Positions 11,190 to 63,686 of a stretch of DNA of 64,000 nt are shown in pieces. The first letter of the stretch is position 1; each line of letters starts with the position of its first letter. The stretch comes from a virus (taxonomy: Duplodnaviria; Heunggongvirae; Uroviricota; Caudoviricetes): positions 16,466 through 80,465 of IMG/VR virus record IMGVR_UViG_3300014720_000027. One strand, written 5' to 3'. A program made the translations under genes and the position numbers. The notes under the pieces were generated by a model. It did not search any database. It worked only from the letters and a program-made list of their open reading frames with translations, and was not told the DNA's origin.

Positions 11190-11362
11190 ATTTACTCCTA
11201 TGATCTATATATTAATAACATATCAGAAGATATAGTTTTTTGATTATGTTCAAAAAATAATTTATATTTTTTAGAGTCCATGTATTGTTTACAATCTAAA
11301 TGCAGTTCATGAGAATGAGTCAATATAAATACTGTACTTACTTGTTCTGGTCATTTTTAACT

Positions 11363-12124: not shown

Positions 12125-12125
12125 A

Positions 12126-16572: not shown

Positions 16573-17402
16573 TTTAAAATATCCAATTCTGTATGAGGGC
16601 AGTAAATATTTGAAAAATCTAGATCTTCCAGCTTGATTCTGTGGCCGGATAAATAAAGCTGCATCAGATGATCTTCACAGTATGAATATTGATCGCCAGA
16701 CCTATTCTTATACTCTTCTTGAACTCTATTATTTGGGCTGTTTACCACGCAACTATCTTTGGGGGCTAGCATAAAAGGCCCAACCTCGAAGAAAAATCGT
16801 TGCATTAATGATTCTAATTTATTAGGCGTTTGAGAATATCTGTTGATATTATTCCATAAATATATTTCGTACAATATTTTTTGTAATTTTCTTTTATTAA
16901 AAATGTGTCCATCTACCGATAAAACATATCCCCAATAACTATGAGGCAGTACAGATGTTCTATTCCATATGATTTCAGATTCGTTTAAGAAATTGACTTG
17001 TGTTGTATCGTTATACCACTTATCTTCCATTTGACGCTTAGTTATATTTAGCCCTAAACGAAGAGAGTAGCATCCAAAAACATCATTATCCAAATGAGAC
17101 AAAGTGGAGGCCGGTATATTTACCATTTTATATACAATATCATCGTCTGTAAACATAACAACATATTCATTTTTTGAATCTCTGCACGCTTCCCAAGTAT
17201 CTTGAAAAAAACTATCTTGCTTGATAAAAATAACTTTAGTTTGATATTCTTTCATTAAAATATTGTAAGATTCTAAATGCGAATCGTCGGCTTTCCACAC
17301 GACTCTAATCTGATTACATTGTATAAAATTTTGCTTAATACTTTTTAGCAAAAGGTCTAATTGAGTGGCCCTGTTTTTACTAAATACTATAGCAGATATC
17401 AT
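16569..17402 (-). CDS. Putative glycosyltransferase (GT-A-like)
   Basis: N-terminal ISAIVFSKNRATQLDLLLKS is typical of GT-A nucleotide-binding openings. No stronger motif seen. Confidence 0.35.
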   Translation of the reverse strand: MISAIVFSKNRATQLDLLLKSIKQNFIQCNQIRVVWKADDSHLESYNILMKEYQTKVIFIKQDSFFQDTWEACRDSKNEYVVMFTDDDIVYKMVNIPASTLSHLDNDVFGCYSLRLGLNITKRQMEDKWYNDTTQVNFLNESEIIWNRTSVLPHSYWGYVLSVDGHIFNKRKLQKILYEIYLWNNINRYSQTPNKLESLMQRFFFEVGPFMLAPKDSCVVNSPNNRVQEEYKNRSGDQYSYCEDHLMQLYLSGHRIKLEDLDFSNIYCPHTELDILK

Positions 17403-18336
17403 TCAATATTCCTTTATTTTTATAAAACCAGTCTATAGTTATATCCAACCCTTTGTCCAGATTATAAACTGGGTGATAATCCAAAACGTTTTTAGCCCTA
17501 TTTATAGAAAGACTTCTACGTGGCTGACCTTCTAATTTATCATGCTGAAATGCAAAATTTCCATAATAATTCATTTTTTTTGCTATCAAATGAACCAATT
17601 CTCTAACGGTTGTTTCTTCCCCAGTTCCTATGTTGATTGGCTCTGGCCCGGTATCTTTATTCATTGCCAGTATAATAGCATTTACGCAGTCTTCTACAAA
17701 TAAGAATTCTCTGCTGGCTTTTCCAGAGCCCCAAACTTCTACAAATGTTTTATTATTTTTTAAAGCTTGGTCAATTTTTAAAATAATCGCGGGAATAACG
17801 TGGCTACTAGTTAAATTAAAATGATCATGACTACCATACATATTTGCCGGAACCAATGTAGTAGAATTAAATCCATATTCTTTTTCATAAGCTATTAAAA
17901 GCTCATTAATTGTTTTTTTAGCGATTCCATATGGAGCATTAGTTTCTTCCGGATAGCCACTCCACAAGTCCTCTTCATGGAATGGCACTCGCGTATATTT
18001 TGGGTAAGAGCACACCGTCCCCAGCATTATAAATTTTTTTAAATTGCCATACTTTCTACAACTTTCGATAAGGTTAGTGCCCATCGCCAGATTTTCATAA
18101 ATAAATAAGCCGGGATGTTGAGAGTTAGCCAAAATTCCACCAACTCTAGCCGCTGTATGAATAACAATATCGGGCTTGTGCTGATTAATCAAATAGTCTA
18201 CATATCGTTGATTGGTTAAGTCGCACTCTGTTTTGCCAGAAAGTTTTATAAGATTATCATATCCAAGATATTCTAATTTTTGTATCAGGTTTTTACCTAC
18301 AAAGCCTTGTGCTCCACTAATTAAAATTTTCTGCAT
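17380..18336 (-). CDS. fcl: GDP-L-fucose synthase (GDP-4-keto-6-deoxy-D-mannose 3,5-epimerase/4-reductase)
   Basis: Strong colinear similarity to E. coli Fcl: ILISGAQGFVGKNL Rossmann; AARVGGILANSQHPGLFIYEN vs AAKVGGIVANNTYPADFIYQN; APYGIAKKT (YxxxK); HVIPAII; VWGSGKASREFLFVED. The likely start is the internal Met (MQKILISG). The ORF track extends to 18387. Confidence 0.8.
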   Translation of the reverse strand: MQKILISGAQGFVGKNLIQKLEYLGYDNLIKLSGKTECDLTNQRYVDYLINQHKPDIVIHTAARVGGILANSQHPGLFIYENLAMGTNLIESCRKYGNLKKFIMLGTVCSYPKYTRVPFHEEDLWSGYPEETNAPYGIAKKTINELLIAYEKEYGFNSTTLVPANMYGSHDHFNLTSSHVIPAIILKIDQALKNNKTFVEVWGSGKASREFLFVEDCVNAIILAMNKDTGPEPINIGTGEETTVRELVHLIAKKMNYYGNFAFQHDKLEGQPRRSLSINRAKNVLDYHPVYNLDKGLDITIDWFYKNKGILNDICYSI

Positions 18337-19372
18337 AATATTTATTCCATAAAGAAAGTATAGAACTAGACTCTTTCTCGTAGCCAAACCTATTTAAAAA
18401 TTGCGCTATTCTGTGATAATTAGTGTGCTCTGATAAAACTATTTTTTGTCCTTGTTTGGCTATTTTTTCAGCTTCGTCATAATTATTTAAATAATAGTTA
18501 ACATGATCCTGAAAATCTTGTTCATTATCAGCAAACACCATGCCATCTTTAAAGATTCTTTTGTGAGACGCGACATTATCACCAACACAAAATCCACCGG
18601 CTGCCAATACTTTAAAACTTCTTTCGTTTACTTCTATCCCGTATTCATGAGCGTGCGGCTCGCTTAAATTAGGACAAATTCTTGCTGATCTAAAAAGATT
18701 CTTTACTTTCTCTTCTTTAATATGTCCACAATACTGATTTACCCCAGTCCATCCTTGATTACCAAATATTTTTATTTTGTATTTATTTACAGGATAACAT
18801 AATGGCAAAAGATATTTATTGATTATTTGTCCTTTATAAGGCCAATAGCCGCCAACAAATCCAATGTCACACTCTAAAGCCGGGTCATATTCTGGATTTA
18901 AATAAGAATGAATATCAGCGCACAAAAGAATACCAACCGCTGGAATGTTTAACTTATTAACAAAATGCGAATGCGTTTGATTAACCGATTCCTGTTCGTA
19001 ATGAATATAAATAAACTCTGGCTGGCCTGTTTCATTTTTTAAATCTTCTAATAGCTTAATTTCTTTTTGAGTGGTTTGCAGGATATTAAATCTTGGATCT
19101 GTGTGAAAATCAGACCAATCTCCAGCTCTTAAAGCTACTTTTAAATGCGGTCTATTTTTAATACATTTGATTGTAGCTTTATCTAGGTTGTATAGTTGAC
19201 CAATAAATATATCGGGTTGAAACTCATCGAATATTCTAAAGGTTGGGGTTTTTGTATCATATATTTGAGCTTCTATAAAATTAATACTATTAAAAGCGTT
19301 TAACCAAGACATTCTTTCAAAATAGTGAGCGTGATAACCGTCATTAGCAATCAATATTTTTAATTTCTTCAT
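18317..19372 (-). CDS. Putative glycosyltransferase (CgeB/DUF3880-like)
   Basis: C-terminal KVLAAGGFCVGDN ... NYYLNNYDEAEKIAKQG resembles the CgeB-family GT C-terminus. Confidence 0.4.
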   Translation of the reverse strand: MKKLKILIANDGYHAHYFERMSWLNAFNSINFIEAQIYDTKTPTFRIFDEFQPDIFIGQLYNLDKATIKCIKNRPHLKVALRAGDWSDFHTDPRFNILQTTQKEIKLLEDLKNETGQPEFIYIHYEQESVNQTHSHFVNKLNIPAVGILLCADIHSYLNPEYDPALECDIGFVGGYWPYKGQIINKYLLPLCYPVNKYKIKIFGNQGWTGVNQYCGHIKEEKVKNLFRSARICPNLSEPHAHEYGIEVNERSFKVLAAGGFCVGDNVASHKRIFKDGMVFADNEQDFQDHVNYYLNNYDEAEKIAKQGQKIVLSEHTNYHRIAQFLNRFGYEKESSSILSLWNKYYAENFN

Positions 19373-20012
19373 TTTTTAAATCCTTGATTGAATCTATTTC
19401 TACTATACGCATGTTTTCTGGCTCATAACAATGAAAAATGCCGCCCATATTGATAACCTTGTTTATAATTTCAAAAATAAAAAGTTTATCAGTATTATAA
19501 TGTATTATTTCTTTTAAAAATTGTAATTCTACGCCCGTAAAATACGCTATTTGACACCATTTTTGTTTTAAGCCATAAGATAAATTTGTAGCAATATTAT
19601 TATCTGAAACTATTCCAACTTCTTTGTCGGCAATTCTCTGCTTATTGTCCACTATTAAAAATGACTTCTTTTTATTGACGTTTAAGGCATCGTAATTAAA
19701 CAGAAGATCTCCGTGAATAATAAGTAAACCGGCTGATGAAAATTTCAATGCTATTTTTACACCATATGCGGTGCCATTATCTAAAAAGTTTTTATTTTCA
19801 ATAACGCATATCTTTTCTTTATCAAATTTTTTTTGTATTTTACTAAATTTATAACCGCCGACAATAGTTATGTCTTTTCCAAATAATTTTGAAACTATGC
19901 TTACCTGATTGTCTATTATGGTTTTTTCGCCAATTTGAATCAGGCATCTTGGTTCGTAAGATTTCATTCTGGCTGATATGCCAGCGGCAAGTATTATTGT
20001 TTGATTCTTCAT
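19344..20012 (-). CDS. Sugar nucleotidyltransferase (MobA-like NTP-transferase fold)
   Basis: N-terminal IILAAGISARMKS matches the GxGxR nucleotide-binding motif of sugar-phosphate nucleotidyltransferases. Confidence 0.5.
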   Translation of the reverse strand: MKNQTIILAAGISARMKSYEPRCLIQIGEKTIIDNQVSIVSKLFGKDITIVGGYKFSKIQKKFDKEKICVIENKNFLDNGTAYGVKIALKFSSAGLLIIHGDLLFNYDALNVNKKKSFLIVDNKQRIADKEVGIVSDNNIATNLSYGLKQKWCQIAYFTGVELQFLKEIIHYNTDKLFIFEIINKVINMGGIFHCYEPENMRIVEIDSIKDLKNEEIKNIDC

Positions 20013-20758
20013 AATCTTTGTTGTAGTATTTTAGCGTTTTGATTAAAAATTTCAGGAGTCATTTTTAATGATTGGTTTCTTCCCGTTGTTCTGACTAAAG
20101 ATAAAGATTGGGGCACATGTTTCATGAGGCAAACTTTAGATAATCTCAGCCATAAATCATAATCTTCAGTGCAACCAATAAAACCTTTGCTTAGCGGCCC
20201 ATGTAATCTTGGATCGTATACGTCTTTATTTTCTAGTAATACCTGTTGTAAAATAGATTTACGAATAAGAGCCCCCGAATGAACAATACATCTTTTTAAC
20301 AGTGTTGATGAACTATACGGTTCTTTAAATTCTCTTTTTATATACCCATCTTCCAAAATATCGTAGTCGGCATAAGCTACGCCAACATTAGGATCAGACA
20401 TTTCTTTAAGTAGAAGCTCTACTTTGTTTGGATAATATATATCGTCGGCATCAAGAATAGCAAAAAAATCTGATTGATCCCAAAGATTTTTAATCAATGT
20501 ATTTCTAGCGGCGGAAGCCCCTTGATTTTCTGTATTAATGTAAGTAAAATTAGTGTTATAAACAATTCCGGGCTTATAGAGCGTGGCCTGTGATAATGAT
20601 GCGATATATTGCATGATATTATCATGCGAATTATCTGTAGATCCATCATTGATAACACCAACATGACAATGAATAGTTTGACTCATTGCGCTTTTAAAAG
20701 CATCTACAACCATATCTCCATAGTTATAATTTGCAATGATAATAGATACTTTATCCAC
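20009..20758 (-). CDS. Family 2 glycosyltransferase
   Basis: SIIIANYNYGDMVVDAFKSAMSQT and LDADD are classic GT2 motifs. Confidence 0.65.
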   Translation of the reverse strand: MDKVSIIIANYNYGDMVVDAFKSAMSQTIHCHVGVINDGSTDNSHDNIMQYIASLSQATLYKPGIVYNTNFTYINTENQGASAARNTLIKNLWDQSDFFAILDADDIYYPNKVELLLKEMSDPNVGVAYADYDILEDGYIKREFKEPYSSSTLLKRCIVHSGALIRKSILQQVLLENKDVYDPRLHGPLSKGFIGCTEDYDLWLRLSKVCLMKHVPQSLSLVRTTGRNQSLKMTPEIFNQNAKILQQRL

Positions 20759-21554
20759 TAAACATATCCTCCCAAGAAACCAAACAATTTGGATCTTCTG
20801 ATTTTAACTCAGATACTCGTTCTAGAAAATTTTTGCTATCAATGCTTCCATCAGAATTTATTTTTGGAGAATTTCCGCCAAGCAGTTTATACAAAGCCGC
20901 CTGAATAATAAAGCTTTTATCGGTTTTCTTTTCGCAATAAACAAATCGTTTTAATTCTATATTTATTCTGTTATGAATTTTTTCTGTAAAATTTTCTGGT
21001 ATATTACAACCACTATCTAAGAATACAATCCATCCGTTCTTACAAAAAGCAAGAGCATCATCTATAGAATCATATATGTAGTCTAGATTACTGGGTGGCA
21101 TTAAAATATTGTACTGTATTATTTTTTCGTTTTTATACAAATTTTCTAATATACTGAAAAGCTCCATATTGTATTCTGCTTTGTCATTTATTACAATCAA
21201 AAATTTTCTAGAGCTTGTTTGATTATTTATAGAATCGACAAGACTCTTAAAAAAATCCATATCGTAGTTAAATTTTACAATAAAAGAAAGTCTAGGTTTA
21301 ACTTCCTCCATCACCTCCTCTTTAGCTTTAGTTAAATTGTTGTTACAATATTGATCCATCCAATCTGCCGGGCGACGAGTATTGCAAAACCTATTAAATA
21401 TAGCGTGTGAGACATTTTCCACTTCTTCAAAATTTTCATCTGGATTTAAAATATGCAGCCTGTTTAAAGAGCATCCATATTGAATATCTTTGCCTTTAAA
21501 ACTAGTGTATTCTGCAAACACACAATCTTTACAAGAAAATTTAATATCGCTCAT
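20751..21554 (-). CDS. Putative GT-A glycosyltransferase
   Basis: LSFIVKFNYDMDFFKSLVDSINNQT GT2-like opening. The fold assignment is tentative. Confidence 0.4.
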   Translation of the reverse strand: MSDIKFSCKDCVFAEYTSFKGKDIQYGCSLNRLHILNPDENFEEVENVSHAIFNRFCNTRRPADWMDQYCNNNLTKAKEEVMEEVKPRLSFIVKFNYDMDFFKSLVDSINNQTSSRKFLIVINDKAEYNMELFSILENLYKNEKIIQYNILMPPSNLDYIYDSIDDALAFCKNGWIVFLDSGCNIPENFTEKIHNRINIELKRFVYCEKKTDKSFIIQAALYKLLGGNSPKINSDGSIDSKNFLERVSELKSEDPNCLVSWEDMFSG

Positions 21555-21967
21555 TCTAATATTCCTACTACAATTGATGTAAAGTTTTTAATTTGTTTTT
21601 GGCTAATTTTAAATCCTGCCAACCTTAATTCGTCTATAATAATGTCTGTACTTACAGCGCATTTTACAGAAGAACCGGCTGGATATATAGCCTCATTAAA
21701 ATCTGTTAATGTAATTGCTCCAGTTGAAAGCATATGTGATAATAACTCTATATCAGTAAAGTAGAGTATAATTTTACCGCCTTTTTTTATTTTCGAAGCA
21801 ATCAGCCTAATTACGTCGGGAACTTCCTTAATATTAAAGGAGCACAAAATGTCATCTACGACAATTTCAGAAGCTTCTCCGTTATCTACTATAATATCCA
21901 AAGAAGACAGATTATTTATCCATAATCTATCTTGATCTTCTTGGTTATGACTAAAGACTATTCTCAT
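21551..21967 (-). CDS. Small methyltransferase-like or truncated domain protein
   Basis: KKGGKIILYF and ILCSFNIKEVPDV resemble the post-motif-I to motif-III region of class I MTases. Motif I is lacking. Confidence 0.3.
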   Translation of the reverse strand: MRIVFSHNQEDQDRLWINNLSSLDIIVDNGEASEIVVDDILCSFNIKEVPDVIRLIASKIKKGGKIILYFTDIELLSHMLSTGAITLTDFNEAIYPAGSSVKCAVSTDIIIDELRLAGFKISQKQIKNFTSIVVGILE

Positions 21968-22944
21968 TGATATAAAACTCCTTCAAATACTTGATTCCAG
22001 CTATTTGTAAACTGATTTAAGTTGTAGTTGTTTAGTATTGTTTCTCTTGCATTATTCCCTAATTTTCTAGCATAACTAGGGTCTAATAGTAATTGTTTGC
22101 AATGATCTTGTAGTTCTTGTGGACTATTTGACAAAAGCCCGTTTTCACCATGTTTAATTATTTCTGGAATCATGCAGGTAGCAGTTGAAACTATAGCACA
22201 ACCACACGCCATTGCCTCCATTAAAGACATTGGAACTGGGGAATGCAGCGAAGTATTTAAAAATATACTAGATTTTTGATACGCTTTTTTTAACTCTGTA
22301 ATTGATTCAGCGGCATCAGACAGGCCCGGATTTTTACCTAAAACTTTGACTGGTAGCTGGTTTGGTTCTACAATGCTTCTCCATAAATTCCACCCACAAG
22401 CCCAATCTCTACTAGACCAATAGTTGACCACAGATAGTAGTGTATTTTCTCTATCCTGATTATTTTCATCGCACCAAAAATCAGTATCCATTCCATGATT
22501 TATAAACTTGGAGTTTGACTCATTATATCCCCAGCTTTTTGAATTAAAGTCTGAAATAAATGTGGTCAGATCAACATCTGCCGATTGAAAAGTCTGAAGC
22601 TGTTGCTGTATGTTATAGCGAACATCTGGAAGGACATGGCAGTGTCTAATAATTGGCACTTGACAATATTCTTTGATATCTTGGGCCACTCTAATTCTAT
22701 CATCAGATGTGTGAACTAAAATAAGATCGAATTCTTCATGATAAGGCAATTGATTTATAATTTTATAATTTTCTGGAATAGCCGCATATGCAGTATCCCA
22801 TTCTTTACCACTTTTTAAGCAAAAGAAATTATGCCCGGTTTTTGCTAGATTAGATTCGTATCGTTCATGGGTTGATCCGACAACAATAATATTTAAAGTT
22901 TTACCCCTTGTTGCGCGTCTAACTATAGATTTAACTAAGTCCAT
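21964..22944 (-). CDS. GT4-family (GT-B) glycosyltransferase
   Basis: MSLMEAMACGCAIVST is the GT4 donor-binding signature. Confidence 0.6.
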   Translation of the reverse strand: MDLVKSIVRRATRGKTLNIIVVGSTHERYESNLAKTGHNFFCLKSGKEWDTAYAAIPENYKIINQLPYHEEFDLILVHTSDDRIRVAQDIKEYCQVPIIRHCHVLPDVRYNIQQQLQTFQSADVDLTTFISDFNSKSWGYNESNSKFINHGMDTDFWCDENNQDRENTLLSVVNYWSSRDWACGWNLWRSIVEPNQLPVKVLGKNPGLSDAAESITELKKAYQKSSIFLNTSLHSPVPMSLMEAMACGCAIVSTATCMIPEIIKHGENGLLSNSPQELQDHCKQLLLDPSYARKLGNNARETILNNYNLNQFTNSWNQVFEGVLYQ

Positions 22945-24061
22945 TTAAAACTTCCTTTATTATATTTCCTATAGAGCTATAAGAAAATTTTTGTTTTGTA
23001 CTATTAGATATTTTTTCTTTATTGTCAATTATATTTTGCCTATTTTCATATGTTGATCTCATGGCAATTCTTAAATACTGGACATTGATATTTTGCCAAC
23101 AGTCTGCCGAGCTTTGTATTTCTGGTAGTGCTGACTGCATATTAAAACAGTCATCTAGACTCGACAACACCCCAATAGAATAGTCTTGAGCATATGTGGC
23201 GGTTCCGGTATCATTGGTATAGATCAAGTTCAATCCTAGTGCCTGAGCCTCTACAGCAGGAATACAGCAAGCTTCTCCGTGGCTAGGGCAAACAAAACTA
23301 TGGCACTGGTTCAAAATAGAAACATAGTCGTGATGTTTTAGATGTCCGCATACGGTTGATATATTTTGATATTTTTTTCTTATTTTTAGCCCGGCCTTTA
23401 CAAAATCATTTAATTTATTAAACTCTTCCATGCATTTATCGCTAGACATATTTGAGCTTAATTTGATAAATAGGTTTATTGGTTCGGAAGGATGAAATTC
23501 AGTATAAAATGCTCTTAATAAAGATATCAAATCTTTTCTATTATTCCACTCTCCAACAAAGCAAAAATTAAAAGAATGCTCTAATTCTGATATAGATGCG
23601 GTTTTTGTTGTTGTTGAATATTTTTTAGGATCAAGGCTGTAAGGAATAACACTGATCGGATTGGATACGCCGCTTCTTATTGAAGCTTCTTTGTTTTGAT
23701 CCGACATTACCCATGAAGCATCTAGCATGTTAATATATTTATGCCATTTGCTATAATGAAAGTCAAAAGATTCTGTGCAATAAAATCCTATATTTTTAAT
23801 TTTAGCATTGTAGTAATAATATTTTGGTAGGCAGTGCTGAATACAAAAATCAGATCCTTGGCATGACCCCTCCTCCATTTGCTGAATAGTTTCACTAATT
23901 TCTTTTTGTGTTCCAAAACTAATTGGTCTAGCAACTACGTCTATGCCAACCGATTTCATAGCCAGCATATTTGCTTCTGCGGCAGAGCCCCAGCCGCTAG
24001 CATCTCGATAATTACCTATATATAAAACTTTCATAAATTTTTTACTCTGTGAGACTCCCAA
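22931..24061 (-). CDS. GT-B glycosyltransferase (GT4-like)
   Basis: IPAVEAQALGLNLIYT resembles the E-A-x-A-x-G motif. Size typical of the family. Confidence 0.5.
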   Translation of the reverse strand: MGVSQSKKFMKVLYIGNYRDASGWGSAAEANMLAMKSVGIDVVARPISFGTQKEISETIQQMEEGSCQGSDFCIQHCLPKYYYYNAKIKNIGFYCTESFDFHYSKWHKYINMLDASWVMSDQNKEASIRSGVSNPISVIPYSLDPKKYSTTTKTASISELEHSFNFCFVGEWNNRKDLISLLRAFYTEFHPSEPINLFIKLSSNMSSDKCMEEFNKLNDFVKAGLKIRKKYQNISTVCGHLKHHDYVSILNQCHSFVCPSHGEACCIPAVEAQALGLNLIYTNDTGTATYAQDYSIGVLSSLDDCFNMQSALPEIQSSADCWQNINVQYLRIAMRSTYENRQNIIDNKEKISNSTKQKFSYSSIGNIIKEVLNGLS

Positions 24062-25656
24062 GTATTATAGTATTCTCTTAAAGTTACTATCTGTTTATAT
24101 GCATCTTGATAGCTAAAAGCTTTCATTTTTAAAGTATCTTTGTTATGATTTTCATTTATATAAAAAGAATTTAAATTTTCTACGGTTGCTTTATAAGTCA
24201 GTTCTTTTACTAAACGTCTCCACAAAAATCCTCCAAGCATCTCTGGCTTATATAAAACTTCGGCAATTAAAAAGTTTGCTTGATCTAGTGGCGATTTTAA
24301 GCTTTCATTAATGGGCTTTGGTTTAATAACTTTGCCCGGGGATTTCCAAGACTGTTCCTCTGGAACAATGTCTAAAGATTTGAAAAGCTCTATCCATTTA
24401 GATGCGGTACTATCCCAATTATATTTGGAGAGTGTTTTTATATAAATTGCACGACCCATTTTTGTTAATTCTTCTTTACTTTTTGATGTTAGAGTATGAA
24501 GAAGTTCGACAAAATATGCATTATCTGGAATAGCTCTTTTGCATCCTGTTTCGGGCTCAATTATAAAGCCTTTGGCGGGAATAGGAAAAGCCTCTATATT
24601 TTTTATAACCGAAGACATGGCGGAATAATCAATAGAACAAACAACGTTTCCGCACTGAGCCGCTTCTAACTGCGGCATCCCAAATCCTTCACTATTTGCA
24701 TATTGTACATAAATATCAAAAACATTATAAACTTTTGCCAATTCTGTTTCTGACAATGGATTATTTATACCGCAAATACCGGAAGTGAAATTATTGCATT
24801 TGTTACAAAATTTAACTATATCGCTAAAAAATGAACAATGAATATGTCCGCATTTAGTACATTTGTACGTAAATAAAACTTTATTAGTTAAGTTATGTTC
24901 TATCAATAAAGCCGGTATATCCCATCCTACATCAGGAAATGACGTATGGCAATAAAGATAAACGTCTTCCCTCTTTGATTCATCTAGAAACTTTCTAAAT
25001 GATGCGAATAAATCAGGGTACAATTTACGCCTTTGATTACGCATGACAGTTCCAATAATATAAGGGGCTGCGTCCATTCCAAACGAATTTCTTAGCTGAG
25101 CCTTCTCTTTTATTGGATAAAAATTAAAAGAGGCACAAGGAGATGCAACCCCTTTAAAATTATCAAACAACCCCTGCTTCTTTAGTGTATCTATACCAAA
25201 TTCGGAATAAGTAAAAATAGCATCGGCCCGGCTATATGTGTCAACCCATTCTATATTTTGAGGTTCTGCATCTACCGTTGGCATTAATGCCAATTTATAA
25301 AAATTTCTAAATGGTGAATTCTGCTCAAACGACACCATCCAAAAGTCTCGGATATCGAAAACAAAGTCCGGCTTAAATGCTAGTAGCACAGAGTTAAAAG
25401 AAAATTCACCAAATTCCGCAGTTGGAGATGATTTATATGCTTCAAATTCTGGTGTTCCTATTTTTGGCTTATTGGGAAATATTCTCCACGGAACATTTTT
25501 AATTTTCGGATCTTCTTCTGAGCAATAACAGGCTAGTTCCGCCACTTCAAATTCCGGAATTTTATTTAATCTAGATAAAACTTCCTTTGAGTAAACAGAA
25601 TATCCCGTAGGCAACTGAGAAAACTCAGTTACCATTAGTATTTTTTTCTTACGCAT
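24031..25656 (-). CDS. Large GT-B glycosyltransferase with Cys-cluster insert
   Basis: PQLEAAQCGNVVCS GT-B motif. CTKCGHIHC...CNKCNNFTSGICG Zn-ribbon-like insert. Confidence 0.5.
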   Translation of the reverse strand: MRKKKILMVTEFSQLPTGYSVYSKEVLSRLNKIPEFEVAELACYCSEEDPKIKNVPWRIFPNKPKIGTPEFEAYKSSPTAEFGEFSFNSVLLAFKPDFVFDIRDFWMVSFEQNSPFRNFYKLALMPTVDAEPQNIEWVDTYSRADAIFTYSEFGIDTLKKQGLFDNFKGVASPCASFNFYPIKEKAQLRNSFGMDAAPYIIGTVMRNQRRKLYPDLFASFRKFLDESKREDVYLYCHTSFPDVGWDIPALLIEHNLTNKVLFTYKCTKCGHIHCSFFSDIVKFCNKCNNFTSGICGINNPLSETELAKVYNVFDIYVQYANSEGFGMPQLEAAQCGNVVCSIDYSAMSSVIKNIEAFPIPAKGFIIEPETGCKRAIPDNAYFVELLHTLTSKSKEELTKMGRAIYIKTLSKYNWDSTASKWIELFKSLDIVPEEQSWKSPGKVIKPKPINESLKSPLDQANFLIAEVLYKPEMLGGFLWRRLVKELTYKATVENLNSFYINENHNKDTLKMKAFSYQDAYKQIVTLREYYNTWESHRVKNL

Positions 25657-55283: not shown

Positions 55284-56321
55284 TTAGTCTCCTGTAATTT
55301 TTATAATTTCTTTAGCAGAATTTTCCCATGTAAAACGTCTTGCTGTTTCTACACCTGCGTCATTCTTTGAAAATCCTGCTGACTGTTTTAATTTATGAAC
55401 ATCTTTCATGTATTCAATAAGCTGTTCTTTTTGGGTTTCTTTGATTTGAGCCCATAACCCTTGTCCGCGAAACCAGATACCATCTTGTGCAAGCTCTAAG
55501 GAGTCTATATTTATTAATTTGGCATTTTTTTGATTGCAAAATTCGGTATGAGCAGAATAATTAGTGGCAATTACTTGTTTTCCACAGGCCATCAGTTCTA
55601 ATAATTCCAAATTCCACCCTTCTGCTCTAGCTGGAAATACGCCGCAATCAACTTGTCTCATTATATTATACACATTTTTTTGAGTGGGTTGTCTGGGTAT
55701 TAGTTTTATTTTATGGGCAAGTTTACTATTTTTTACCAAATTATCCCAATAAGAATTATCAATAAATGGATTGTGACACATTAGCCAAAGCTCTACGTCA
55801 TCCTGCGGAGAAAACGCTCTGTTAAAACATTCGATTAAAACATCATGACCTTTTCTAATTTCCCACTTTCCACAATTAAAAAAAATAGTTTCTTTTCTTG
55901 TTGAGTTATTTAAATCATTAAATATAAGGTTGTCTACGCCCAAAGGAACGACAGAGTTAGGAGTTTCAATATGGTCTCTTATCACGCGCTGCGCCCATTT
56001 GCTTGGGACAAACAGGTGGTCGCAATGCTTTAAACTTTCTACTTCCTGTTTAGTGAAATGAGTTAATTCGAAAATAGGAAAACCTATTCGTCTTCCCTTA
56101 GTTATCCAAGTGGTTAATTCATGCTGGTGCCAAATTTTTATTTCTACATCGTCTGACTTATATTTTTTATTAAGCCAAAGATTACTTTCTATGTCGGATA
56201 AAGAAGGGTCTATTTGTCCGATTGGATATAGAGAGACATTAGTTAATTTAGCTAACTGTTTAGTAATATGATATCCGGTGTATCCGTAACCAAGTGTATT
56301 AATTGGAGATTGTACGATCAT
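55284..56321 (-). CDS. GT4-family (GT-B) glycosyltransferase
   Basis: LELMACGKQVIATNYSAHTEF donor-binding motif. Confidence 0.6.
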   Translation of the reverse strand: MIVQSPINTLGYGYTGYHITKQLAKLTNVSLYPIGQIDPSLSDIESNLWLNKKYKSDDVEIKIWHQHELTTWITKGRRIGFPIFELTHFTKQEVESLKHCDHLFVPSKWAQRVIRDHIETPNSVVPLGVDNLIFNDLNNSTRKETIFFNCGKWEIRKGHDVLIECFNRAFSPQDDVELWLMCHNPFIDNSYWDNLVKNSKLAHKIKLIPRQPTQKNVYNIMRQVDCGVFPARAEGWNLELLELMACGKQVIATNYSAHTEFCNQKNAKLINIDSLELAQDGIWFRGQGLWAQIKETQKEQLIEYMKDVHKLKQSAGFSKNDAGVETARRFTWENSAKEIIKITGD

Positions 56322-57134
56322 TTATATTTCCTCTTGCGCGTTTAAAAATACCGGAATATATTTTTTATCTTCGCCAGCAAAATGTATAAATCTATTTGTT
56401 TTTTGCTGCAATATTTTTTCATCAGACTGTTGAACTAAATGGTGGCTTAAATCAACTTCCATAGGATGAAATATTTCTATTTTGGTTATATTGCAAAATG
56501 CGTCATATATACATTCATCGCATATAAATTCGTATTTTTTTTTACCATGCATGTCTTCATATTTAGCTAATAAATTTTTTATATGCTGATCGTTTCTTAT
56601 ATCTAAAAAATAATCCCTGCAAAAATTATCAAATTTGTCTACAGTTTCTAAGTTCATCTTTATTAGTCCGGCATTAGTATCATATAATGATGCATCGTTT
56701 AAATTCATAACCTGTTTTAAAAATTCTGTTTTTCTTTTTATGTGAAAAAACGATATCTCGTTTTCTCTAGAAAGCATGTTATGCATAAGATGAAAACTGC
56801 TTGGCATTTCTTCAAAAACATTTTTTGATTTATTTGGTATTAAATCTAAATCCATCCAAATTATTTCATCATAATTTTTTGTTGTTAAAAATCCATATAC
56901 ACTACATAGGGTTGCTGGAGCCCAAACACACGGATGATAGTTACCGTATCTTCTTATTTTATTATAAATATCATTGAACGGAGTTGAGTTATCGATAACC
57001 GAAAAGTCACAATTAATATACTCACAATATTTATCTAAATTGCACAGGGCTCTAATTTGCCAACGGCACAATCCCTTGTATAATAAAGAGTGCCCATTTG
57101 AAAAAGCTCCTGTAATTATAATTCTTTTTGTCAT
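56322..57134 (-). CDS. Putative nucleotide-diphospho-sugar transferase (GT-A-like)
   Basis: IIWMDLDLI DxD-like motif. Confidence 0.35.
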   Translation of the reverse strand: MTKRIIITGAFSNGHSLLYKGLCRWQIRALCNLDKYCEYINCDFSVIDNSTPFNDIYNKIRRYGNYHPCVWAPATLCSVYGFLTTKNYDEIIWMDLDLIPNKSKNVFEEMPSSFHLMHNMLSRENEISFFHIKRKTEFLKQVMNLNDASLYDTNAGLIKMNLETVDKFDNFCRDYFLDIRNDQHIKNLLAKYEDMHGKKKYEFICDECIYDAFCNITKIEIFHPMEVDLSHHLVQQSDEKILQQKTNRFIHFAGEDKKYIPVFLNAQEEI

Positions 57135-58063
57135 ATGCTTTTTTCTAGCTTGGTAATAAAGTCATTAGCAAAATAATCTCCGTGCAAAAAATCTTTATTC
57201 ATATTTTTTAGATATTCATGACACTGTAATATCTTTTCTATGTTAACTATATCTTCTGGACCTTCATAATATAAGGGATAGTCTTCTCCTAAATATTCTG
57301 TAGTTGCTGGTAATTTATTAGTTATGATGGGGGTGTTTCTTATCATAGGTTCGATAATTCCATTATTAGCAGAGGTAGCCCACATGCACACATATACTAA
57401 TGTTTTACTTAAATGTTCGTCATATTCTAAATTATCTAATCTTGTTGGTTCATGAATCATATAATCTTTACCCGCAAAGCAGCTAATTCTTTGCCATATT
57501 TTTAAATACTCTTCGACAAATCCCGGCATACAATATGTTTTATATTTTATATGGTTTATTTTTAAAAAATTACATATATTAGAAAATTCTTCAAGGTTTC
57601 TTAGCCAATACCCAAGTTGAGTTATTGATTTATTTTTTAAAAATTCATCAGGACTCCAGCATATTTGAGTTTTTTCCGTGGGGTGTTTTACTGAAAATGT
57701 CGGTATATTTACTTTCAATTTATTTAAAAGTTCTTTAATATCTAATAATAAACTTTCTGATAAAGCGATCAAACACATGCATTTTTTTAAAGATTTTTGA
57801 AAATTTGATTGTTCGAATAAAAAATCTAATGAGTTTTTTTTATCAAATTCTGGCTTATTGTGTCTTGGTATATGCAAAATTCCTATCCAAGGAAAATCAT
57901 AGTACGAGCTGTCTTTATTTCTATTCCATATAAATTTTCTTTCTACAAAATCGTCCAAAAAAATTCCATTATTCGAATGAAATGGTTTTAAACACCTAAT
58001 TGCATAAGACCATCCAGACCTATGCATTGAAAATCCTTCGCATTTTGATAAATTTAATTTCAT
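57131..58063 (-). CDS. Hypothetical protein (310 aa), glycan-cluster member
   Basis: ORF overlap-coupled to its neighbours. No motif recognised. Confidence 0.35.
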   Translation of the reverse strand: MKLNLSKCEGFSMHRSGWSYAIRCLKPFHSNNGIFLDDFVERKFIWNRNKDSSYYDFPWIGILHIPRHNKPEFDKKNSLDFLFEQSNFQKSLKKCMCLIALSESLLLDIKELLNKLKVNIPTFSVKHPTEKTQICWSPDEFLKNKSITQLGYWLRNLEEFSNICNFLKINHIKYKTYCMPGFVEEYLKIWQRISCFAGKDYMIHEPTRLDNLEYDEHLSKTLVYVCMWATSANNGIIEPMIRNTPIITNKLPATTEYLGEDYPLYYEGPEDIVNIEKILQCHEYLKNMNKDFLHGDYFANDFITKLEKSI

Positions 58064-61297: not shown

Positions 61298-61510
61298 TTA
61301 TCCAATCTTGACTGATCGACGATTTAGCGCTCTGCGTGCAAGCCTACGAGCTTCCAAAACGCCCTTATCTCTCAATAGATTACGCACAACGCCACCGGCT
61401 TCAGTATACTTGTATACCTCGTACAGTTGACGACCGCTTACCCGTCCTTCTGCAAACATTCGCAAAAGATCAATTTGAGAAGAATTAGTTGTAAGTACAC
61501 TCCAGTTCAT
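61298..61510 (-). CDS. Hypothetical protein (70 aa)
   Basis: ORF only. Confidence 0.3.
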   Translation of the reverse strand: MNWSVLTTNSSQIDLLRMFAEGRVSGRQLYEVYKYTEAGGVVRNLLRDKGVLEARRLARRALNRRSVKIG

Positions 61511-61563
61511 TTAAGAACCCCTTTCAAAAAAAATAATAAATAGCCTTATGGCTAAACAAACAG

Positions 61564-61843
61564 TAGGGCGTGTTGGAATCGAACCAACCTATGAGCACCT
61601 TATCTTACCACCACGATTTTCATCGCCAGATTAACTCTGTTTGTAGTCTGGACTTTATCTTCACCATAGATTTCTCTTTAGGTGCTGCCTGTCAAGTCTC
61701 TACACCTTCATCTTGCGATGCTTGGCTCGGTATTAGTATTTTACAACCTTCACCGAATTTAAGCAGTTCTACTTTAGAAATTTCTTTCTAAGCACTCATA
61801 ATGATTTAAGAGTGCCGGATGCAACCAGCTTACCTTACGCCCC
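61564..61843 (-). tRNA. tRNA-like gene (trnL(UAA)-like anticodon context) interrupted by a group I intron
   Basis: On the - strand: 5' GGGGCGU pairs perfectly (incl. G1-U72) with 3' ACGCCCU. Canonical T-arm GUUGG-UUCGAUU-CCAAC. D-stem GGU/AUC with GG in the D-loop. The 5' exon ends ...CUU. The 3' end of the insertion is ...GAUG|AAAAUCG. No ORF of 60 aa or more on this strand. It lies in a 346-nt non-coding gap. Confidence 0.6.
61621..61807 (-). mobile_element. Group I intron (IC3, trnL-UAA type) inside the tRNA-like gene
   Basis: The insert begins AAAUCAUUAUGAGUGCUUAGAAAGAAAUUUCUAAAGU, has CCGAGCCAAGC and GAAGGUGUAGAGACUUGACAGGCAGCACCUAA(P7-like) and AAAGAG...AGUCCA, and ends ...GAUG. These parallel, from memory, the Anabaena/chloroplast trnL(UAA) intron (AAAUAAUUGAGCCUUA.AGAAGAAAUUCUUUAAGU...CCUGAGCCAAGCC...GGAAGGUGCAGAGACUCGACGGGAGCUACCCUAA...AAAGAGAGAGUCCA...AAUG). 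The 3' boundary is ambiguous: an alternative omega-G at 61604 would give a canonical 5-bp anticodon stem GCACU/GGUGC. Confidence 0.55.
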
Positions 61844-61856
61844 ATCTACACTTATA

Positions 61857-62048
61857 TTAGCGTCCAGTGCCGCTTCTTGTAATATATTTTACATAACTTT
61901 TTAGCGCTGTCAAGAGCCTTTCAAAAAATCCGGGCGAATTTTTTTCTGGCTTGATTGAATTTACCAGCCGAGTATATTCTGGGTGCTGATCTTGAAAAGC
62001 CTTTTGAGCCTTCATAAATTGACTATTTGACATTCCTGAATCTTTCAT
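61857..62048 (-). CDS. Small hypothetical protein (63 aa)
   Basis: ORF ending 14 nt before the tRNA-like 5' end. Confidence 0.3.
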   Translation of the reverse strand: MKDSGMSNSQFMKAQKAFQDQHPEYTRLVNSIKPEKNSPGFFERLLTALKSYVKYITRSGTGR

Positions 62049-62566: not shown

Positions 62567-62833
62567 TCAACTGTGTTTTCCACTTAATTTATATCCTTCT
62601 AAAACAGAATGTTTTCTAAGATATTCTTCTGTTGTTTGTGTATCAATAGGCATTAATTTTGCGGCTGGAATAGCTTTATAATAAGCATCTTGCTCAGCCT
62701 CGGTCATATCTTCCCATTTTTTATCCCAAATATACTTATATTCAGATGGGATATTTTCAAAATGCTCGATTTTATTTTCTAAGCATCGTATCTTATGCCT
62801 AAGTCTTTCGTTAGCTTCCGATAATATACTCAT
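62567..62833 (-). CDS. Hypothetical protein (88 aa)
   Basis: ORF overlap-coupled to the upstream gene. Confidence 0.35.
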   Translation of the reverse strand: MSILSEANERLRHKIRCLENKIEHFENIPSEYKYIWDKKWEDMTEAEQDAYYKAIPAAKLMPIDTQTTEEYLRKHSVLEGYKLSGKHS

Positions 62834-63222
62834 TGTATTCCATGCGGGCTTGCTACGCCCCCTTTTCTCGATACGAAAACCAGTTGTGCCGTAGATATCT
62901 TGGCTTCGCCACTCTTTCTAATGGCGTAGGTCTCTACCTCAAAAGTTAACGACTTGATCCCAGCTTTAATTAGCGTGCTCTCATGCCTCAACACATCACC
63001 CAAAACAGCCCCGGCGTGATAGTTAATATTAGCGTTAACGGTAACAGCATCCTCACACTCGGATTGTAGTAGTAGTTTAGTACAATGCTGGGCTACTGTC
63101 AAGTCGATTTCAGAAAAAAGTTTGCCCCCAAAAATAGTGCCCCTATCATTGGTGTCTTGAGGAAATACATTGCTGTAATTAACGTGCTTCTCGTTTTGTG
63201 GGTGCATTAAGACAACGCTCAT
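62830..63222 (-). CDS. Putative hotdog-fold acyl-CoA thioesterase (4HBT/YbgC-like)
   Basis: Size and composition (DRGTIFGGKLFSEIDLTVAQHC...) resemble hotdog-fold thioesterases. The call is tentative. Confidence 0.4.
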   Translation of the reverse strand: MSVVLMHPQNEKHVNYSNVFPQDTNDRGTIFGGKLFSEIDLTVAQHCTKLLLQSECEDAVTVNANINYHAGAVLGDVLRHESTLIKAGIKSLTFEVETYAIRKSGEAKISTAQLVFVSRKGGVASPHGIQ

Positions 63223-63686
63223 TTATAACGACTCCGATAACCAATACAATCAGAATCTTCATATAAAATCATTTTAATGCCAGCCTCTTCAAACATTTTA
63301 CTAGATAACCTGAAAGAGTCAAGCCATTTTGTGTCTTCAACGTAAAAAGACACAATATTTTTTATACCAGACTGAATAATCATTCCGGCGCATACTGAGC
63401 AGGGAGCAAAGGGCGTAGTGAAAATAGTGCATCCATCAAGCGGTTCGCGGGCAAATAATAGTGCGTTACGCTCTGCGTGAACAATAAGCTGATATTTTAG
63501 CTCTCTGTTATTAAGTCTTTCCTCTGTGTCTTCTACGCCTCTAGGAAGCCCATTATAGCCGGTAGAAACAACTCTGCGATCAGGAGCTACGATCACGGCT
63601 CCTACTTTAGTAGATGGATCTTTAGAAGCTGTAGAAACATATTGAGCTAGCCCTAAGAACCACTTATCCCATTTTTTGTTAAACAT
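63219..63686 (-). CDS. dCMP deaminase (cytidine/deoxycytidylate deaminase zinc-binding fold)
   Basis: HAERNAL and PCSVCAGMI (H-x-E ... PC-x-x-C) zinc-binding motifs. Confidence 0.75.
   Translation of the reverse strand: MFNKKWDKWFLGLAQYVSTASKDPSTKVGAVIVAPDRRVVSTGYNGLPRGVEDTEERLNNRELKYQLIVHAERNALLFAREPLDGCTIFTTPFAPCSVCAGMIIQSGIKNIVSFYVEDTKWLDSFRLSSKMFEEAGIKMILYEDSDCIGYRSRYK

What the first reader, a model, noticed from the sequence alone, without database searches (positions are those of the whole stretch)
61564..61843. tRNA-like gene split by a trnL(UAA)-type group I intron in a phage genome
A 346-nt ORF-free gap on the - strand holds a sequence with a perfect T-arm (GUUGG-UUCGAUU-CCAAC) and a 7-bp acceptor stem (GGGGCGU / ACGCCCU, including G1-U72). 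Its two halves are about 270 nt apart. The intervening ~187 nt show a string of motifs matching, from memory, the cyanobacterial/chloroplast tRNA-Leu(UAA) IC3 group I intron. Those are AAAU.AUU.UGAG...UUAGAAAGAAAUU.CUAAAGU, CCGAGCCAAGC, GAAGGUG.AGAGACU.GAC.GG.AGC.ACCUAA, AAAGAG...AGUCCA and a terminal AUG|AAAAUC. This would be an intron-containing tRNA carried by a virus.

One oddity is that splicing at the Anabaena-equivalent site (GAUG|AAAAUCG) does not give a canonical anticodon stem. A second omega-G 17 nt further on (GGUAAG|AUAAGGUGC) does. It yields stem GCACU/GGUGC and loop CUU|AUAA, which would be anticodon UAU rather than UAA. That suggests a duplicated trnL 3'-exon remnant (AAAAUCGUG) from intron homing, or a re-targeted tRNA.
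Basis: partly seen in the sequence, partly recalled or inferred. Interest (0 to 1): 0.85.

Follow-up and report, generated by a model that had tools for sequence, protein, structure and literature searches.

The report
Self-splicing intron in phage tRNA-Ile(UAU)
A phage gene for the transfer RNA that reads the isoleucine codon AUA is interrupted inside its anticodon by a 204-base self-splicing (group I) intron; it is a clear new example of a known kind of element, in a host gene and a type of genome where such introns have hardly been described.

Summary
Window 61843-61564 (- strand) is a split tRNA gene: a 36-nt 5' exon, a 204-nt ORF-less IC3 group I intron (61807-61604) and a 40-nt 3' exon.

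- **Intron:** it passes the Rfam group I model locally (56.2 bits, threshold 50). P1-P9 are supported by covariation in 27 phage homologues (94% of cells paired, against 29-44% in slid controls).
- **Splice sites:** CUU|AAAU at the 5' end and the distal GUAAG|AUAA at the 3' end. Three results fix them: an invariant U.G pair in P1, a P10 guide that covaries with the anticodon, and relatives that lack the intron. More than 110 viral contigs carry the uninterrupted tRNA. One syntenic pair differs at the tRNA by an exact 205-nt insertion at CTCTT^ATAAGG.
- **Proximal site:** It is not a trnL exon remnant.
- **Product:** the spliced RNA is a tRNA with anticodon UAU, reading AUA. AUA makes up 41% of Ile codons in the window's long ORFs.

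The intron belongs to a lineage that sits after C32-U33-U34 in several phage tRNAs (Leu, Arg, Lys, Gln, Glu, Ile). Splicing itself and Ile charging are inferred. This is a new member of a known kind, of moderate interest.

The parts
61886..61913 (-). Sigma-70-like promoter candidate, TTGACA-16 nt-TAAAAT, whose second hexamer ends 42 nt upstream of tRNA position 1
   Evidence: 11 of 12 hexamer matches. By eye, most relatives show similar TTGACA / TATAAT-like or TAGAAT-like hexamers upstream in the alignment. Use of this promoter is inferred.
61808..61843 (-). 5' exon (36 nt): acceptor 5' strand GGGGCGU, an irregular D-arm (AAGGUAAGCUGGUUGCAUCCG), anticodon-stem 5' strand GCACU, then C32-U33-U34. 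The 5' splice site follows U at 61808.
   Evidence: Empty-site comparison.
61604..61807 (-). 204-nt ORF-less IC3 group I intron
   Evidence: Rfam RF00028 at 56.2 bits. Covariation in alignment A1. No - strand ORF of 30 aa or more. MFE z-score -2.8.
61795..61801 (-). Internal guide sequence UUAU-GAG. GAG (61797-61795) pairs with exon CUU (P1, with U34.G at the splice site). UUAU (61801-61798) pairs with the first four 3'-exon bases AUAA (P10).
   Evidence: P1 is invariant in 27 of 27 homologues. The P10 guide covaries with anticodon nt 35-36 across Leu, Ile, Arg, Lys, Gln and Glu hosts. Coordinates.
61774..61791 (-). P2 hairpin UUAGAAA-GAAA-UUUCUAA, with a GAAA tetraloop
   Evidence: 7 of 7 pairs have compensatory changes.
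61685..61766 (-). Catalytic core, 5' part. P3 (CUGCUU/AGGCAG), P4 (UUCGG/CCGAG), P5 (GGU/ACU), P6-P6a (CC..GG and CAUC-GCAA-GAUG), and the P7 5' strand GAGACU with its bulged A.
   Evidence: P3 covaries at 6 of 6 pairs, P5 at 3 of 3, P6a at 4 of 4. P4, P6 and P7 are invariant and always paired. Coordinates.
61650..61684 (-). P8 hairpin with an 11-nt-type tetraloop receptor (CCUAAA...UAUGG), then J8/7, then the P7 3' strand AGUCC. P3 and P7 form the group I pseudoknot.
   Evidence: The receptor assignment is by analogy with the Azoarcus intron, recalled from memory.
61604..61647 (-).
   Evidence: P9b covaries at 4 of 4 pairs. P9 is 95.6% paired, with U.G / U-A / C-G exchanges at one pair. The 3' ends are homologous in L001 and L003.
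61564..61603 (-). 3' exon (40 nt): A35-U36-A37-A38, anticodon-stem 3' strand GGUGC, variable loop, T-arm GUUGG-UUCGAUU-CCAAC, acceptor 3' strand ACGCCCU, discriminator A73. No encoded CCA.
61541..61554 (-). Intrinsic-terminator-like hairpin TAGCC-ATAA-GGCTA followed by a T-rich run
   Evidence: Function is inferred.

Best explanation
A phage-encoded tRNA with anticodon UAU is interrupted between nt 34 and 35 by a 204-nt IC3 group I intron that carries no ORF. By anticodon and A73 it is tRNA-Ile, reading AUA.

**Proposed steps**
1. The gene is transcribed as its own unit, from a sigma-70-like promoter to an intrinsic terminator.
2. The intron folds into the P3-P9 core. P1 forms between exon C32-U33-U34 and the guide GAG, placing the U34.G wobble at the cleavage site.
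3. An external guanosine bound in P7 attacks after U34 (61808).
4. The guide UUAU then aligns the 3' exon AUAA (P10). The freed 3'-OH of U34 attacks after omega-G (61604).
5. The exons are joined into a 76-nt tRNA with anticodon loop CUUAUAA.

**Shown here**
- the anatomy
- covariation of all helices
- the exact insertion boundaries, from intron-less alleles
- the match between guide and anticodon

**Inferred**
- that splicing actually happens
- promoter and terminator use
- charging with isoleucine
- benefit to the phage. AUA is 41% of Ile codons in the window's long ORFs.

**Origin**
The intron is a branch of the lineage found in phage tRNA-Leu(UAA), Arg(UCU), Lys(UUU), Gln(UUG) and Glu(UUC) genes, all after C32-U33-U34. 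It entered a pre-existing, widespread phage tRNA-Ile(UAU) gene, and its guide changed from UUU-GAG to UAU-GAG.
For: **Intron**
- RF00028 at 56.2 bits (gathering 50).
- 27 homologues, 94.1% of cells paired against 29-44% when slid. 31 pairs have double changes. P1 CUU/GAG with U.G is invariant.
- the two guide bases 5' of the IGS G covary with anticodon nt 35-36. Leu AA:UU in 25 of 28; Ile AU:AU; Arg CU:AG in 3 of 5; Lys UU:AG in 3 of 3; Gln UG:CG and Glu UC:GG in one locus each.

**tRNA**
- the joined exons are called tRNA-Ile(tat) at default settings. The cloverleaf stems are 100% paired and 11 of 19 pairs covary.

**Boundaries**
- at least 110 viral loci carry the same tRNA without the intron. 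The joined exons of five intron-bearing relatives are 100% identical to intron-less copies.
- the syntenic pair L126/L276 has nearly identical aligned flanks and differs by an exact 205-nt insertion at CTCTT^ATAAGG.

**Context**
- promoter and terminator candidates.
- AUA codon use.
- phage-type replication genes.
- the Ile-specific junction pattern is absent from 185,579 species-representative genomes. It is present in 3 viral and 6 metagenome contigs.
Against: - No RNA data, so splicing and the mature tRNA are not observed.
- The tRNA is atypical: A8 instead of U8, G1.U72, and an irregular D-arm. ARAGORN needs a lowered threshold to call the interrupted gene.
- A competing 6-bp helix (exon GCACUC with intron GAGUGC) could sequester the 5' splice site. 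The Rfam alignment actually chose that register for P1.
- The window has no homing endonuclease next to the gene, so mobility of this copy is unexplained.
- Isoleucine identity rests only on the anticodon and A73.
Confidence: 0.85

Rival explanations
1. Splicing uses the proximal G (GAUG|AAAAUCG, 61621), as at the Anabaena trnL junction. This would give a UAA anticodon, and the 17 nt that follow would be a leftover of a trnL 3' exon.
Against: - The product has no anticodon stem.
- The stretch is the hairpin CGAU-GAAA-AUCG. It is homologous to UAAC-GAAA-GUUA and UAGC-GAAA-GCUA in phage Leu introns, and 4 of 4 pairs covary.
- P10 matches only the distal site.
- Intron-less alleles show that the whole 204-205 nt is the insertion.
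Confidence: 0.01
2. The locus is a decaying relic. The intron no longer splices and has inactivated the tRNA gene.
For: - No endonuclease gene lies beside this copy.
- A competing helix is possible at the 5' splice site.
- The window sequence has a 5-nt loop in P9a where most relatives have a GNRA-type tetraloop.
Against: - All catalytic-core positions that are invariant in 27 homologues are intact in the window.
- Substitutions relative to the nearest relatives are compensatory in both intron and exons.
- Promoter and terminator candidates are intact.
Confidence: 0.06
3. The window is cellular or plasmid DNA, so this is an ordinary bacterial tRNA intron rather than a phage one.
For: The same intron type is common in bacterial tRNA-Leu, CAU-anticodon (Met/Ile2) and Arg genes. 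The window also carries a long glycosyltransferase cluster.
Against: - PHROG hits to phage DNA polymerase, ribonucleotide reductase, DnaB-like helicase and UvsX-like recombinase.
- Nearly all genes lie on one strand, and GC is about 33%.
- All close relatives of this tRNA plus intron are IMG/VR or metagenome contigs, with none in 185,579 representative genomes.
- The intron-less tRNA is found in more than 110 viral contigs.
Confidence: 0.05
4. The intron is not merely selfish. By sitting in the anticodon it delays or gates tRNA maturation, or shields the precursor from host anticodon nucleases or modification enzymes. On this reading the tRNA acts in phage-host conflict rather than only in codon supply.
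For: - The lineage recurs in several phage tRNAs, always within the anticodon.
- The guide pairs with the anticodon itself.
- A competing helix could act as a switch.
Against: - Presence/absence polymorphism with many intron-less alleles.
- Association with a free-standing HNH-like ORF in relatives. Both fit a mobile selfish element.
- No direct evidence for regulation.
Confidence: 0.1

Closest known systems
Cyanobacterial, plastid and other bacterial tRNA-Leu(UAA) IC3 group I introns (e.g. Anabaena/Nostoc PCC 7120). A survey of 4,934 bacterial genomes is in PMC13011429.
   Same: - Insertion between nt 34 and 35, after C32-U33-U34.
- A short P1 (CUU/GAG) with U.G.
- The same conserved core strings: CCGAGCCAAGC, GAAGGUGNAGAGACU, AGUCC.
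- No ORF.
- 76-80% identity to phage and Rhizobium Leu(UAA) introns.
   Different: - The host is a class I tRNA with anticodon UAU, not tRNA-Leu.
- The P10 guide is UAU rather than UUU.
- The genome is a phage.
- No TAT-anticodon host appears in the held part of that paper's supplementary table (the file was cut when stored).
Azoarcus tRNA-Ile(CAU) IC3 group I intron (PMC13168695)
   Same: - A small IC3 ribozyme of about 200 nt in the anticodon loop of a tRNA that reads AUA.
- GAAA tetraloops in P2 and P9.
- An 11-nt-type receptor in P8.
- A near-identical P7-P3-P8 segment (recalled from memory, not aligned here).
   Different: - Azoarcus: the host is tRNA-Ile2 with anticodon CAU, its insertion site is recalled as 36/37 (PMC13011429 lists Ile2(CAT) introns at 33/34), and its P9 is organised differently.
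- Here: insertion at 34/35 in a UAU tRNA.
Intron-containing tRNA genes of Lak megaphages (preprint 10.1101/356790)
   Same: tRNA genes of phages that carry introns and are missed by bacterial tRNA finders.
   Different: Those introns were called enigmatic. They were delimited with eukaryotic tRNAscan settings and were not assigned to a ribozyme class. Here the intron is shown to be group I, with defined splice sites.
Phage group I introns in protein-coding genes, with internal or free-standing homing endonucleases (review PMC3984707)
   Same: - A self-splicing group I intron in a phage.
- Relatives of this locus carry a free-standing HNH-like ORF abutting the interrupted gene, and it is absent from the intron-less allele.
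- That arrangement resembles the cyanophage psbA intron with its adjacent endonuclease (recalled from memory).
   Different: The host gene is a tRNA. The 2014 review states that all phage introns known then were in protein-coding genes, despite the many phage tRNA genes. The window copy has no endonuclease nearby.

Membership tests
Group I intron (Rfam RF00028) | Covariance-model score at or above the curated gathering score | tested here: met
   56.2 bits against 50, E = 1e-13, at 61635-61818 (-) in a local scan. The whole-window gathering scan missed it.
Group I intron (Rfam RF00028) | Core helices P3-P8 with the P3/P7 pseudoknot, supported by covariation | tested here: met
   P3 covaries at 6 of 6 pairs and is 100% paired. 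P4, P6 and P7 are invariant and paired. P5, P6a and P8 show compensatory changes. Slid controls give 29-44% paired.
Group I intron (Rfam RF00028) | U.G wobble at the 5' splice site in P1 | tested here: met
   Exon CUU pairs with guide GAG, and U34.G is present in 27 of 27 homologues. The 5' boundary is confirmed by the empty site.
Group I intron (Rfam RF00028) | Terminal guanosine (omega-G), with the 3' exon aligned by P10 | tested here: met
   The intron ends GUAAG (61604). P10 AUAA:UUAU has 4 of 4 pairs and covaries with the anticodon across hosts. The 3' boundary is confirmed by the empty site.
Group I intron (Rfam RF00028) | Self-splicing with a guanosine cofactor | not testable with these tools
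   Needs in vitro transcription and splicing, or RNA from infected cells.
tRNA-Leu(UAA)-type IC3 intron | Insertion between anticodon nt 34 and 35 | tested here: met
   Joined loop CUU|AUAA.
tRNA-Leu(UAA)-type IC3 intron | Host gene is tRNA-Leu(UAA) | tested here: not met
   The host has a short variable loop and anticodon UAU. The same tRNA occurs without the intron in at least 110 viral loci, called Ile(tat).
tRNA-Leu(UAA)-type IC3 intron | Sequence homology along the whole intron with Leu(UAA) introns | tested here: met
   79-80% global identity to phage Leu(UAA) introns. 76% over 173 nt to a Rhizobium Leu(UAA) intron. Alignable end to end.
tRNA (elongator, Ile by anticodon) | Cloverleaf recognised once the intron is removed, with stems supported by covariation | tested here: met
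   ARAGORN at default settings on the joined exons. Stems 100% paired and 11 of 19 pairs covary. Rfam RF00005 could not be run on a joined sequence.
tRNA (elongator, Ile by anticodon) | Canonical core: U8, a 4-bp D-stem, G18-G19, T-loop UUCRANY | tested here: inconclusive
   G18-G19 and the T-loop UUCGAUU are present. Position 8 is A, and the D-arm is irregular (GGU-AA-GC...GC-AUC). Relatives, including the intron-less ones, conserve this form.
tRNA (elongator, Ile by anticodon) | Aminoacylation with isoleucine and decoding of AUA | not testable with these tools
   Only the UAU anticodon and A73 are seen. G1.U72 is conserved in 7 of 8 relatives.
Endonuclease-mobilised (homing) group I intron | Homing endonuclease ORF inside or next to the intron | tested here: not met
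   No - strand ORF of 30 aa or more in the intron. No tblastn match in the window to the HNH-like ORF. Relatives L074, L125, L126 and L131 do have that ORF abutting the tRNA 3' end.

The most novel reading that the evidence does not exclude
Group I introns inside the anticodon may be a widespread, overlooked feature of phage tRNA genes, forming one lineage.

- **Guide reads the anticodon:** the lineage's guide sequence pairs with the anticodon, so it can move between any tRNAs that have C32-U33-U34 by changing two guide bases.
- **Possible spread:** this could happen by reverse splicing, or with help from a neighbouring free-standing HNH endonuclease.
- **Possible use to the phage:** the introns may be more than passengers. 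They hide tRNA genes from standard finders, and they could gate tRNA maturation or protect precursors from host anticodon nucleases.
Probability: 0.15. Interest if true: 0.7.

Novelty: new member of a known kind. Interest (0 to 1): 0.5.

Why it matters
- **Annotation.** Standard tools missed this tRNA: default ARAGORN, ARAGORN with the intron option at the default threshold, and a whole-window Rfam scan. The same holds for unannotated tRNA-Leu genes in the cultured jumbo phage Atu_ph07 and in a 735-kb megaphage. Phage tRNA repertoires are therefore undercounted.
- **Biology.** A 2014 review stated that all phage group I introns were in protein-coding genes. A limited scan here found the same intron core in over 120 viral contigs, and at least half sit in tRNA genes of about seven isoacceptor types.
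- **Evolution.** The Ile(UAU) case comes with intron-less alleles, a syntenic filled/empty pair, and a guide that tracks the anticodon. That makes it a clean natural example of how a ribozyme is re-targeted to a new host gene. It is directly testable in vitro.

Tried and rejected
- **Whole-window Rfam scan at gathering threshold** found nothing. Only a local E-value scan found the intron.
- **Rfam E-value scan of L001 and L003** found nothing at E of 0.01 or below, although both hold homologous introns. The model with its filters is insensitive for this lineage.
- **ARAGORN** found nothing at default settings, nor with the intron option at the default threshold. Its -ss flag silently lost the Ile hits.
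- **Relaxed ARAGORN calls** of SeC(tca), Stop(tta) and Pyl(cta) intron-tRNAs looked like suppressor tRNAs. Most were boundary errors: with P1 and P9 constraints they resolve to Arg(UCU), Lys(UUU) or Gln(UUG). One (L101, cta) was not resolved.
- **Brute-force enumeration** of all splice-site pairs was too ambiguous without those constraints.
- **The automatic guide picker** mislocated the IGS in five Ile members. For Ile I rely on the search pattern, which contains ATTATGAGTGC.
- **The Rfam P1 register** (GCACUCUUA/UAUGAGUGC, which puts C at the cleavage position) was rejected. It would give a 5-nt anticodon loop and contradicts the empty site.
- **Derivation of the tRNA from tRNA-Leu** was rejected: short variable loop, and no exon similarity.
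- **Nucleotide search of phage GenBank records** gave only intron-core hits. No flanking similarity links the window to any fetched locus.
- **Literature searches** for phage tRNA group I introns found no description beyond the Lak preprint. The library is incomplete.

Full report
**What is in the sequence.**
- On the - strand, 61843-61564 reads as three blocks: GGGGCGUAAGGUAAGCUGGUUGCAUCCGGCACUCUU, then 204 nt, then AUAAGGUGCUCAUAGGUUGGUUCGAUUCCAACACGCCCUA.
- The gap free of - strand ORFs is 61511-61856.
- Default ARAGORN finds no tRNA in the window. The whole-window Rfam scan at gathering threshold finds nothing.
- A local scan of 61450-61950 gives Intron_gpI RF00028 at 56.2 bits against a gathering score of 50, E = 1e-13.
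- ARAGORN with introns allowed finds nothing at the default threshold. At a lowered threshold it calls tRNA-Ile(tat) with a 204-nt intron.

**Relatives.**
- A distant blastn against phage GenBank records hit only the intron core.
- Two of those hits are unannotated tRNA-Leu(UAA) genes with 205- and 278-nt introns, in megaphage LR756501 and in Agrobacterium phage Atu_ph07.
- Two others split capsid genes, in Pelagibacter phage HTVC120P and a deep-sea phage.
With splice-site constraints, the tRNA hosts resolve as follows:

| Host tRNA | Loci |
|---|---|
| Leu(UAA) | about 35 |
| Arg(UCU) | 8 |
| Lys(UUU) | 3 |
| Arg(CCU) | 2 |
| Gln(UUG), Glu(UUC), Ile(UAU), CAU anticodon | 1 each |

- Junction-specific patterns found the same Ile(UAU)-plus-intron gene in 3 viral contigs and 6 metagenome contigs. 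None was found in 185,579 species-representative genomes.

**Intron structure.**
- I aligned 27 distinct homologues: 3 Ile, 19 Leu and 5 Arg (alignment A1). I then counted pairs for a P1-P10 model written from the window sequence.
- 94.1% of cells are paired, against 29-44% when partners are slid by 1-3 columns. 31 of 55 pairs have changes on both sides. No shuffle out of 500 reached the observed covariation score.
- Compensatory changes occur at every pair of P2 (7 of 7), P3 (6 of 6), P5 (3 of 3), P6a (4 of 4) and P9b (4 of 4).
- P4, P6 and P7 are invariant and always paired.
- P1 is exon CUU with guide GAG. The U.G wobble at the cleavage site is present in all 27.
- The intron has the IC3 layout. 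P2 and P9b carry GAAA tetraloops, P8 carries CCUAAA...UAUGG, and P3/P7 form the pseudoknot. There is no ORF.
- The minimum free energy is -47.5 kcal/mol, z = -2.8.

**Which 3' splice site.** The real end is GUAAG| at 61604. Four lines of evidence agree.
1. Phage Leu introns end in the same way: hairpin, then UAGURGUAAG.
2. The 3' exon AUAA pairs with UUAU immediately 5' of the guide GAG. Joined CUU-AUAA is therefore complementary to UUAU-GAG over 7 positions.
3. The two guide bases next to the G covary with anticodon nt 35-36 across hosts:

| Host | Anticodon nt 35-36 : guide | Support |
|---|---|---|
| Leu | AA:UU | 25 of 28 |
| Ile | AU:AU | all nine, by the search pattern |
| Arg | CU:AG | 3 of 5 |
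| Lys | UU:AG | 3 of 3 |
| Gln | UG:CG | 1 locus |
| Glu | UC:GG | 1 locus |

4. Intron-less alleles exist.
   - The uninterrupted string ACTCTTATAAGGTNNTCA occurs in more than 120 viral contigs. 110 of them are called tRNA-Ile(tat) at default settings and have the same unusual body.
   - The joined exons of L074, L128, L129, L131 and L132 are 100% identical to intron-less copies.
   - The syntenic pair L126 (filled) and L276 (empty) has nearly identical aligned flanks and an exact 205-nt insertion at CTCTT^ATAAGG.

**The tRNA.**
- The joined exons are called tRNA-Ile(tat) at default settings.
- In 8 distinct relatives the acceptor, anticodon and T stems, plus two inner D-arm pairs, are 100% paired. 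11 of 19 pairs covary.
- Oddities are conserved, including in intron-less copies: G1.U72 in 7 of 8, A8, and a D-arm with an AA bulge. A shorter D-arm variant occurs in L125, L130 and L132.
- L127 carries the same intron in a tRNA with a different acceptor stem.
- AUA makes up 41% of Ile codons in the window's long ORFs, or 33 per 1000 codons.
- A TTGACA-16-TAAAAT promoter candidate and a terminator-like hairpin flank the gene.

**Genome context.**
- The window encodes a DnaE-like DNA polymerase, ribonucleotide reductase, a DnaB-like helicase and a UvsX-like recombinase, all with PHROG matches.
- The polymerase is only about 30% identical to known phage polymerases.
- Nearly all genes lie on the - strand, and GC is about 33%. 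A phage origin is likely but not proven from this window alone.

**Relation to cellular introns.**
- The P7-P9 motif that I first took to be phage-specific is common in bacterial IC3 tRNA introns. It occurs in Leu(UAA), CAU-anticodon and Arg(CCU) genes of Alphaproteobacteria, Cyanobacteria, Acidobacteriota and others.
- None of the 120 sampled bacterial loci is Ile(UAU). Identity to the window core is at most 76-79%.
- Global identity is 86% to the L074 Ile intron and 79-80% to phage Leu introns.
- L126 carries both an Ile intron and a Leu intron, about 78% identical in the intron by my count.
- The most economical history: a Leu-type intron entered a pre-existing phage tRNA-Ile(UAU) gene whose loop differs by one base (CUUAUAA against CUUAAAA). 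A compensating U-to-A change in the guide followed.

**Mobility.**
- In L074/L126, L125 and L131, a 163-188-aa ORF abuts the 3' end of the interrupted tRNA on the opposite strand. L130 has a partial match to it.
- The ORF has an HNH-like motif (DHINGKGNDNTLDNLRIICPNCD). Its Pfam HNH_3 match is E = 0.0045, below the curated threshold.
- It is missing from the intron-less syntenic allele.
- The window has no such ORF.

**Literature.**
- A 2014 review states that all phage group I introns then known were in protein-coding genes, despite the many phage tRNA genes (PMC3984707).
- The Lak megaphage preprint reports tRNA introns as enigmatic and previously unreported (10.1101/356790).
- A 2026 survey found 333 group I intron-bearing tRNAs in 4,934 bacterial genomes, with 34/35 typical of tRNA-Leu (PMC13011429). 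The held part of its table lists Ile2(CAT) hosts but no TAT host.
- I found no paper describing group I introns in phage tRNA genes. The library is incomplete, so this is absence of evidence only.

**Verdict.** This is a new member of the IC3 tRNA-intron family, in a new host tRNA and in a phage. Splicing and isoleucine identity remain inferred.

Noticed in passing
window 61810-61815 with 61792-61797 (- strand): Exon GCACUC (anticodon-stem 5' strand plus C32) is perfectly complementary to intron GAGUGC. That gives a 6-bp helix that competes with both the 3-bp P1 and the anticodon stem. The Rfam alignment used this register for P1. It is partly conserved in the Ile family: ACUC is invariant. 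It could be a folding trap or a switch.
   Followed up: partly
window 6701-25656 and 55284-58063 (- strand): A long run of about 250-540-aa ORFs, several of which match glycosyltransferase families (GT1-like, GT47/exostosin-like, PHROG glycosyltransferase), plus one NAD-dependent sugar epimerase/dehydratase. This is an unusually large glycan-synthesis cluster for a phage replication region.
   Followed up: partly
L003 553-914 (MF403008.1 about 112890-113251, complement); L001 556-846 (LR756501.1 about 190243-190533, complement): Agrobacterium jumbo phage Atu_ph07 and a 735-kb megaphage each carry a tRNA-Leu(UAA) gene split by an IC3 group I intron (278 and 205 nt). No tRNA is annotated at this place in Atu_ph07, and the megaphage record has no annotation at all.
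   Followed up: partly
L002 (MH598807.1 19433-20607); L004 (KT997847.1 21756-22832): In Pelagibacter phage HTVC120P and a deep-sea Autographiviridae phage, the same intron core lies between two CDS that are both annotated 'capsid protein'. This suggests an unrecognised group I intron splitting the major capsid gene.
   Followed up: no
L126 980-1474 (-); L125 8407-8973 (+); L131 4538-5029 (+); also L074: A conserved HNH-like ORF abuts the 3' end of the intron-bearing tRNA-Ile on the opposite strand. It is absent from the intron-less syntenic allele L276. Weaker homologues occur in several Leu- and Arg-intron loci; their distance from the tRNA was not checked. This suggests a free-standing homing endonuclease working with the intron.
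   Followed up: partly
alignment A1 columns 23-24 with 252-253; loci L011, L028, L069, L072, L079, L085, L089 and others: Across phage tRNAs with C32-U33-U34, the two bases 5' of the guide G covary with anticodon positions 35-36. The hosts are Leu, Ile, Arg, Lys, Gln and Glu. In effect the intron's guide reads the anticodon.
   Followed up: yes
L127 (OGVN01009264.1): The same Ile-type intron and the same anticodon loop sit in a tRNA with a quite different acceptor stem (CCCAAGC/GCUUGGG) and T-stem. This is either a second host tRNA or a strongly diverged copy. Relaxed ARAGORN did not call it.
   Followed up: no
window 1-64000; L001, L003: The Rfam group I model with default filters missed a bona fide intron in a 64-kb scan. 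It also missed two homologous introns in a 2.7-kb E-value scan. Routine annotation will overlook this lineage.
   Followed up: yes
window 1237-2119 (+): Relaxed ARAGORN calls a 'tRNA-Glu(ttc)' with a 790-nt intron inside the 866-aa ORF 182-2782. This is almost certainly a false positive of the lowered threshold.
   Followed up: no
window 62830-63686 (- strand): Upstream of the tRNA, separated from it by a few small ORFs, lie a dCMP/cytidine deaminase-family ORF (63219-63686) and a 4HBT thioesterase-family ORF (62830-63222).
   Followed up: no
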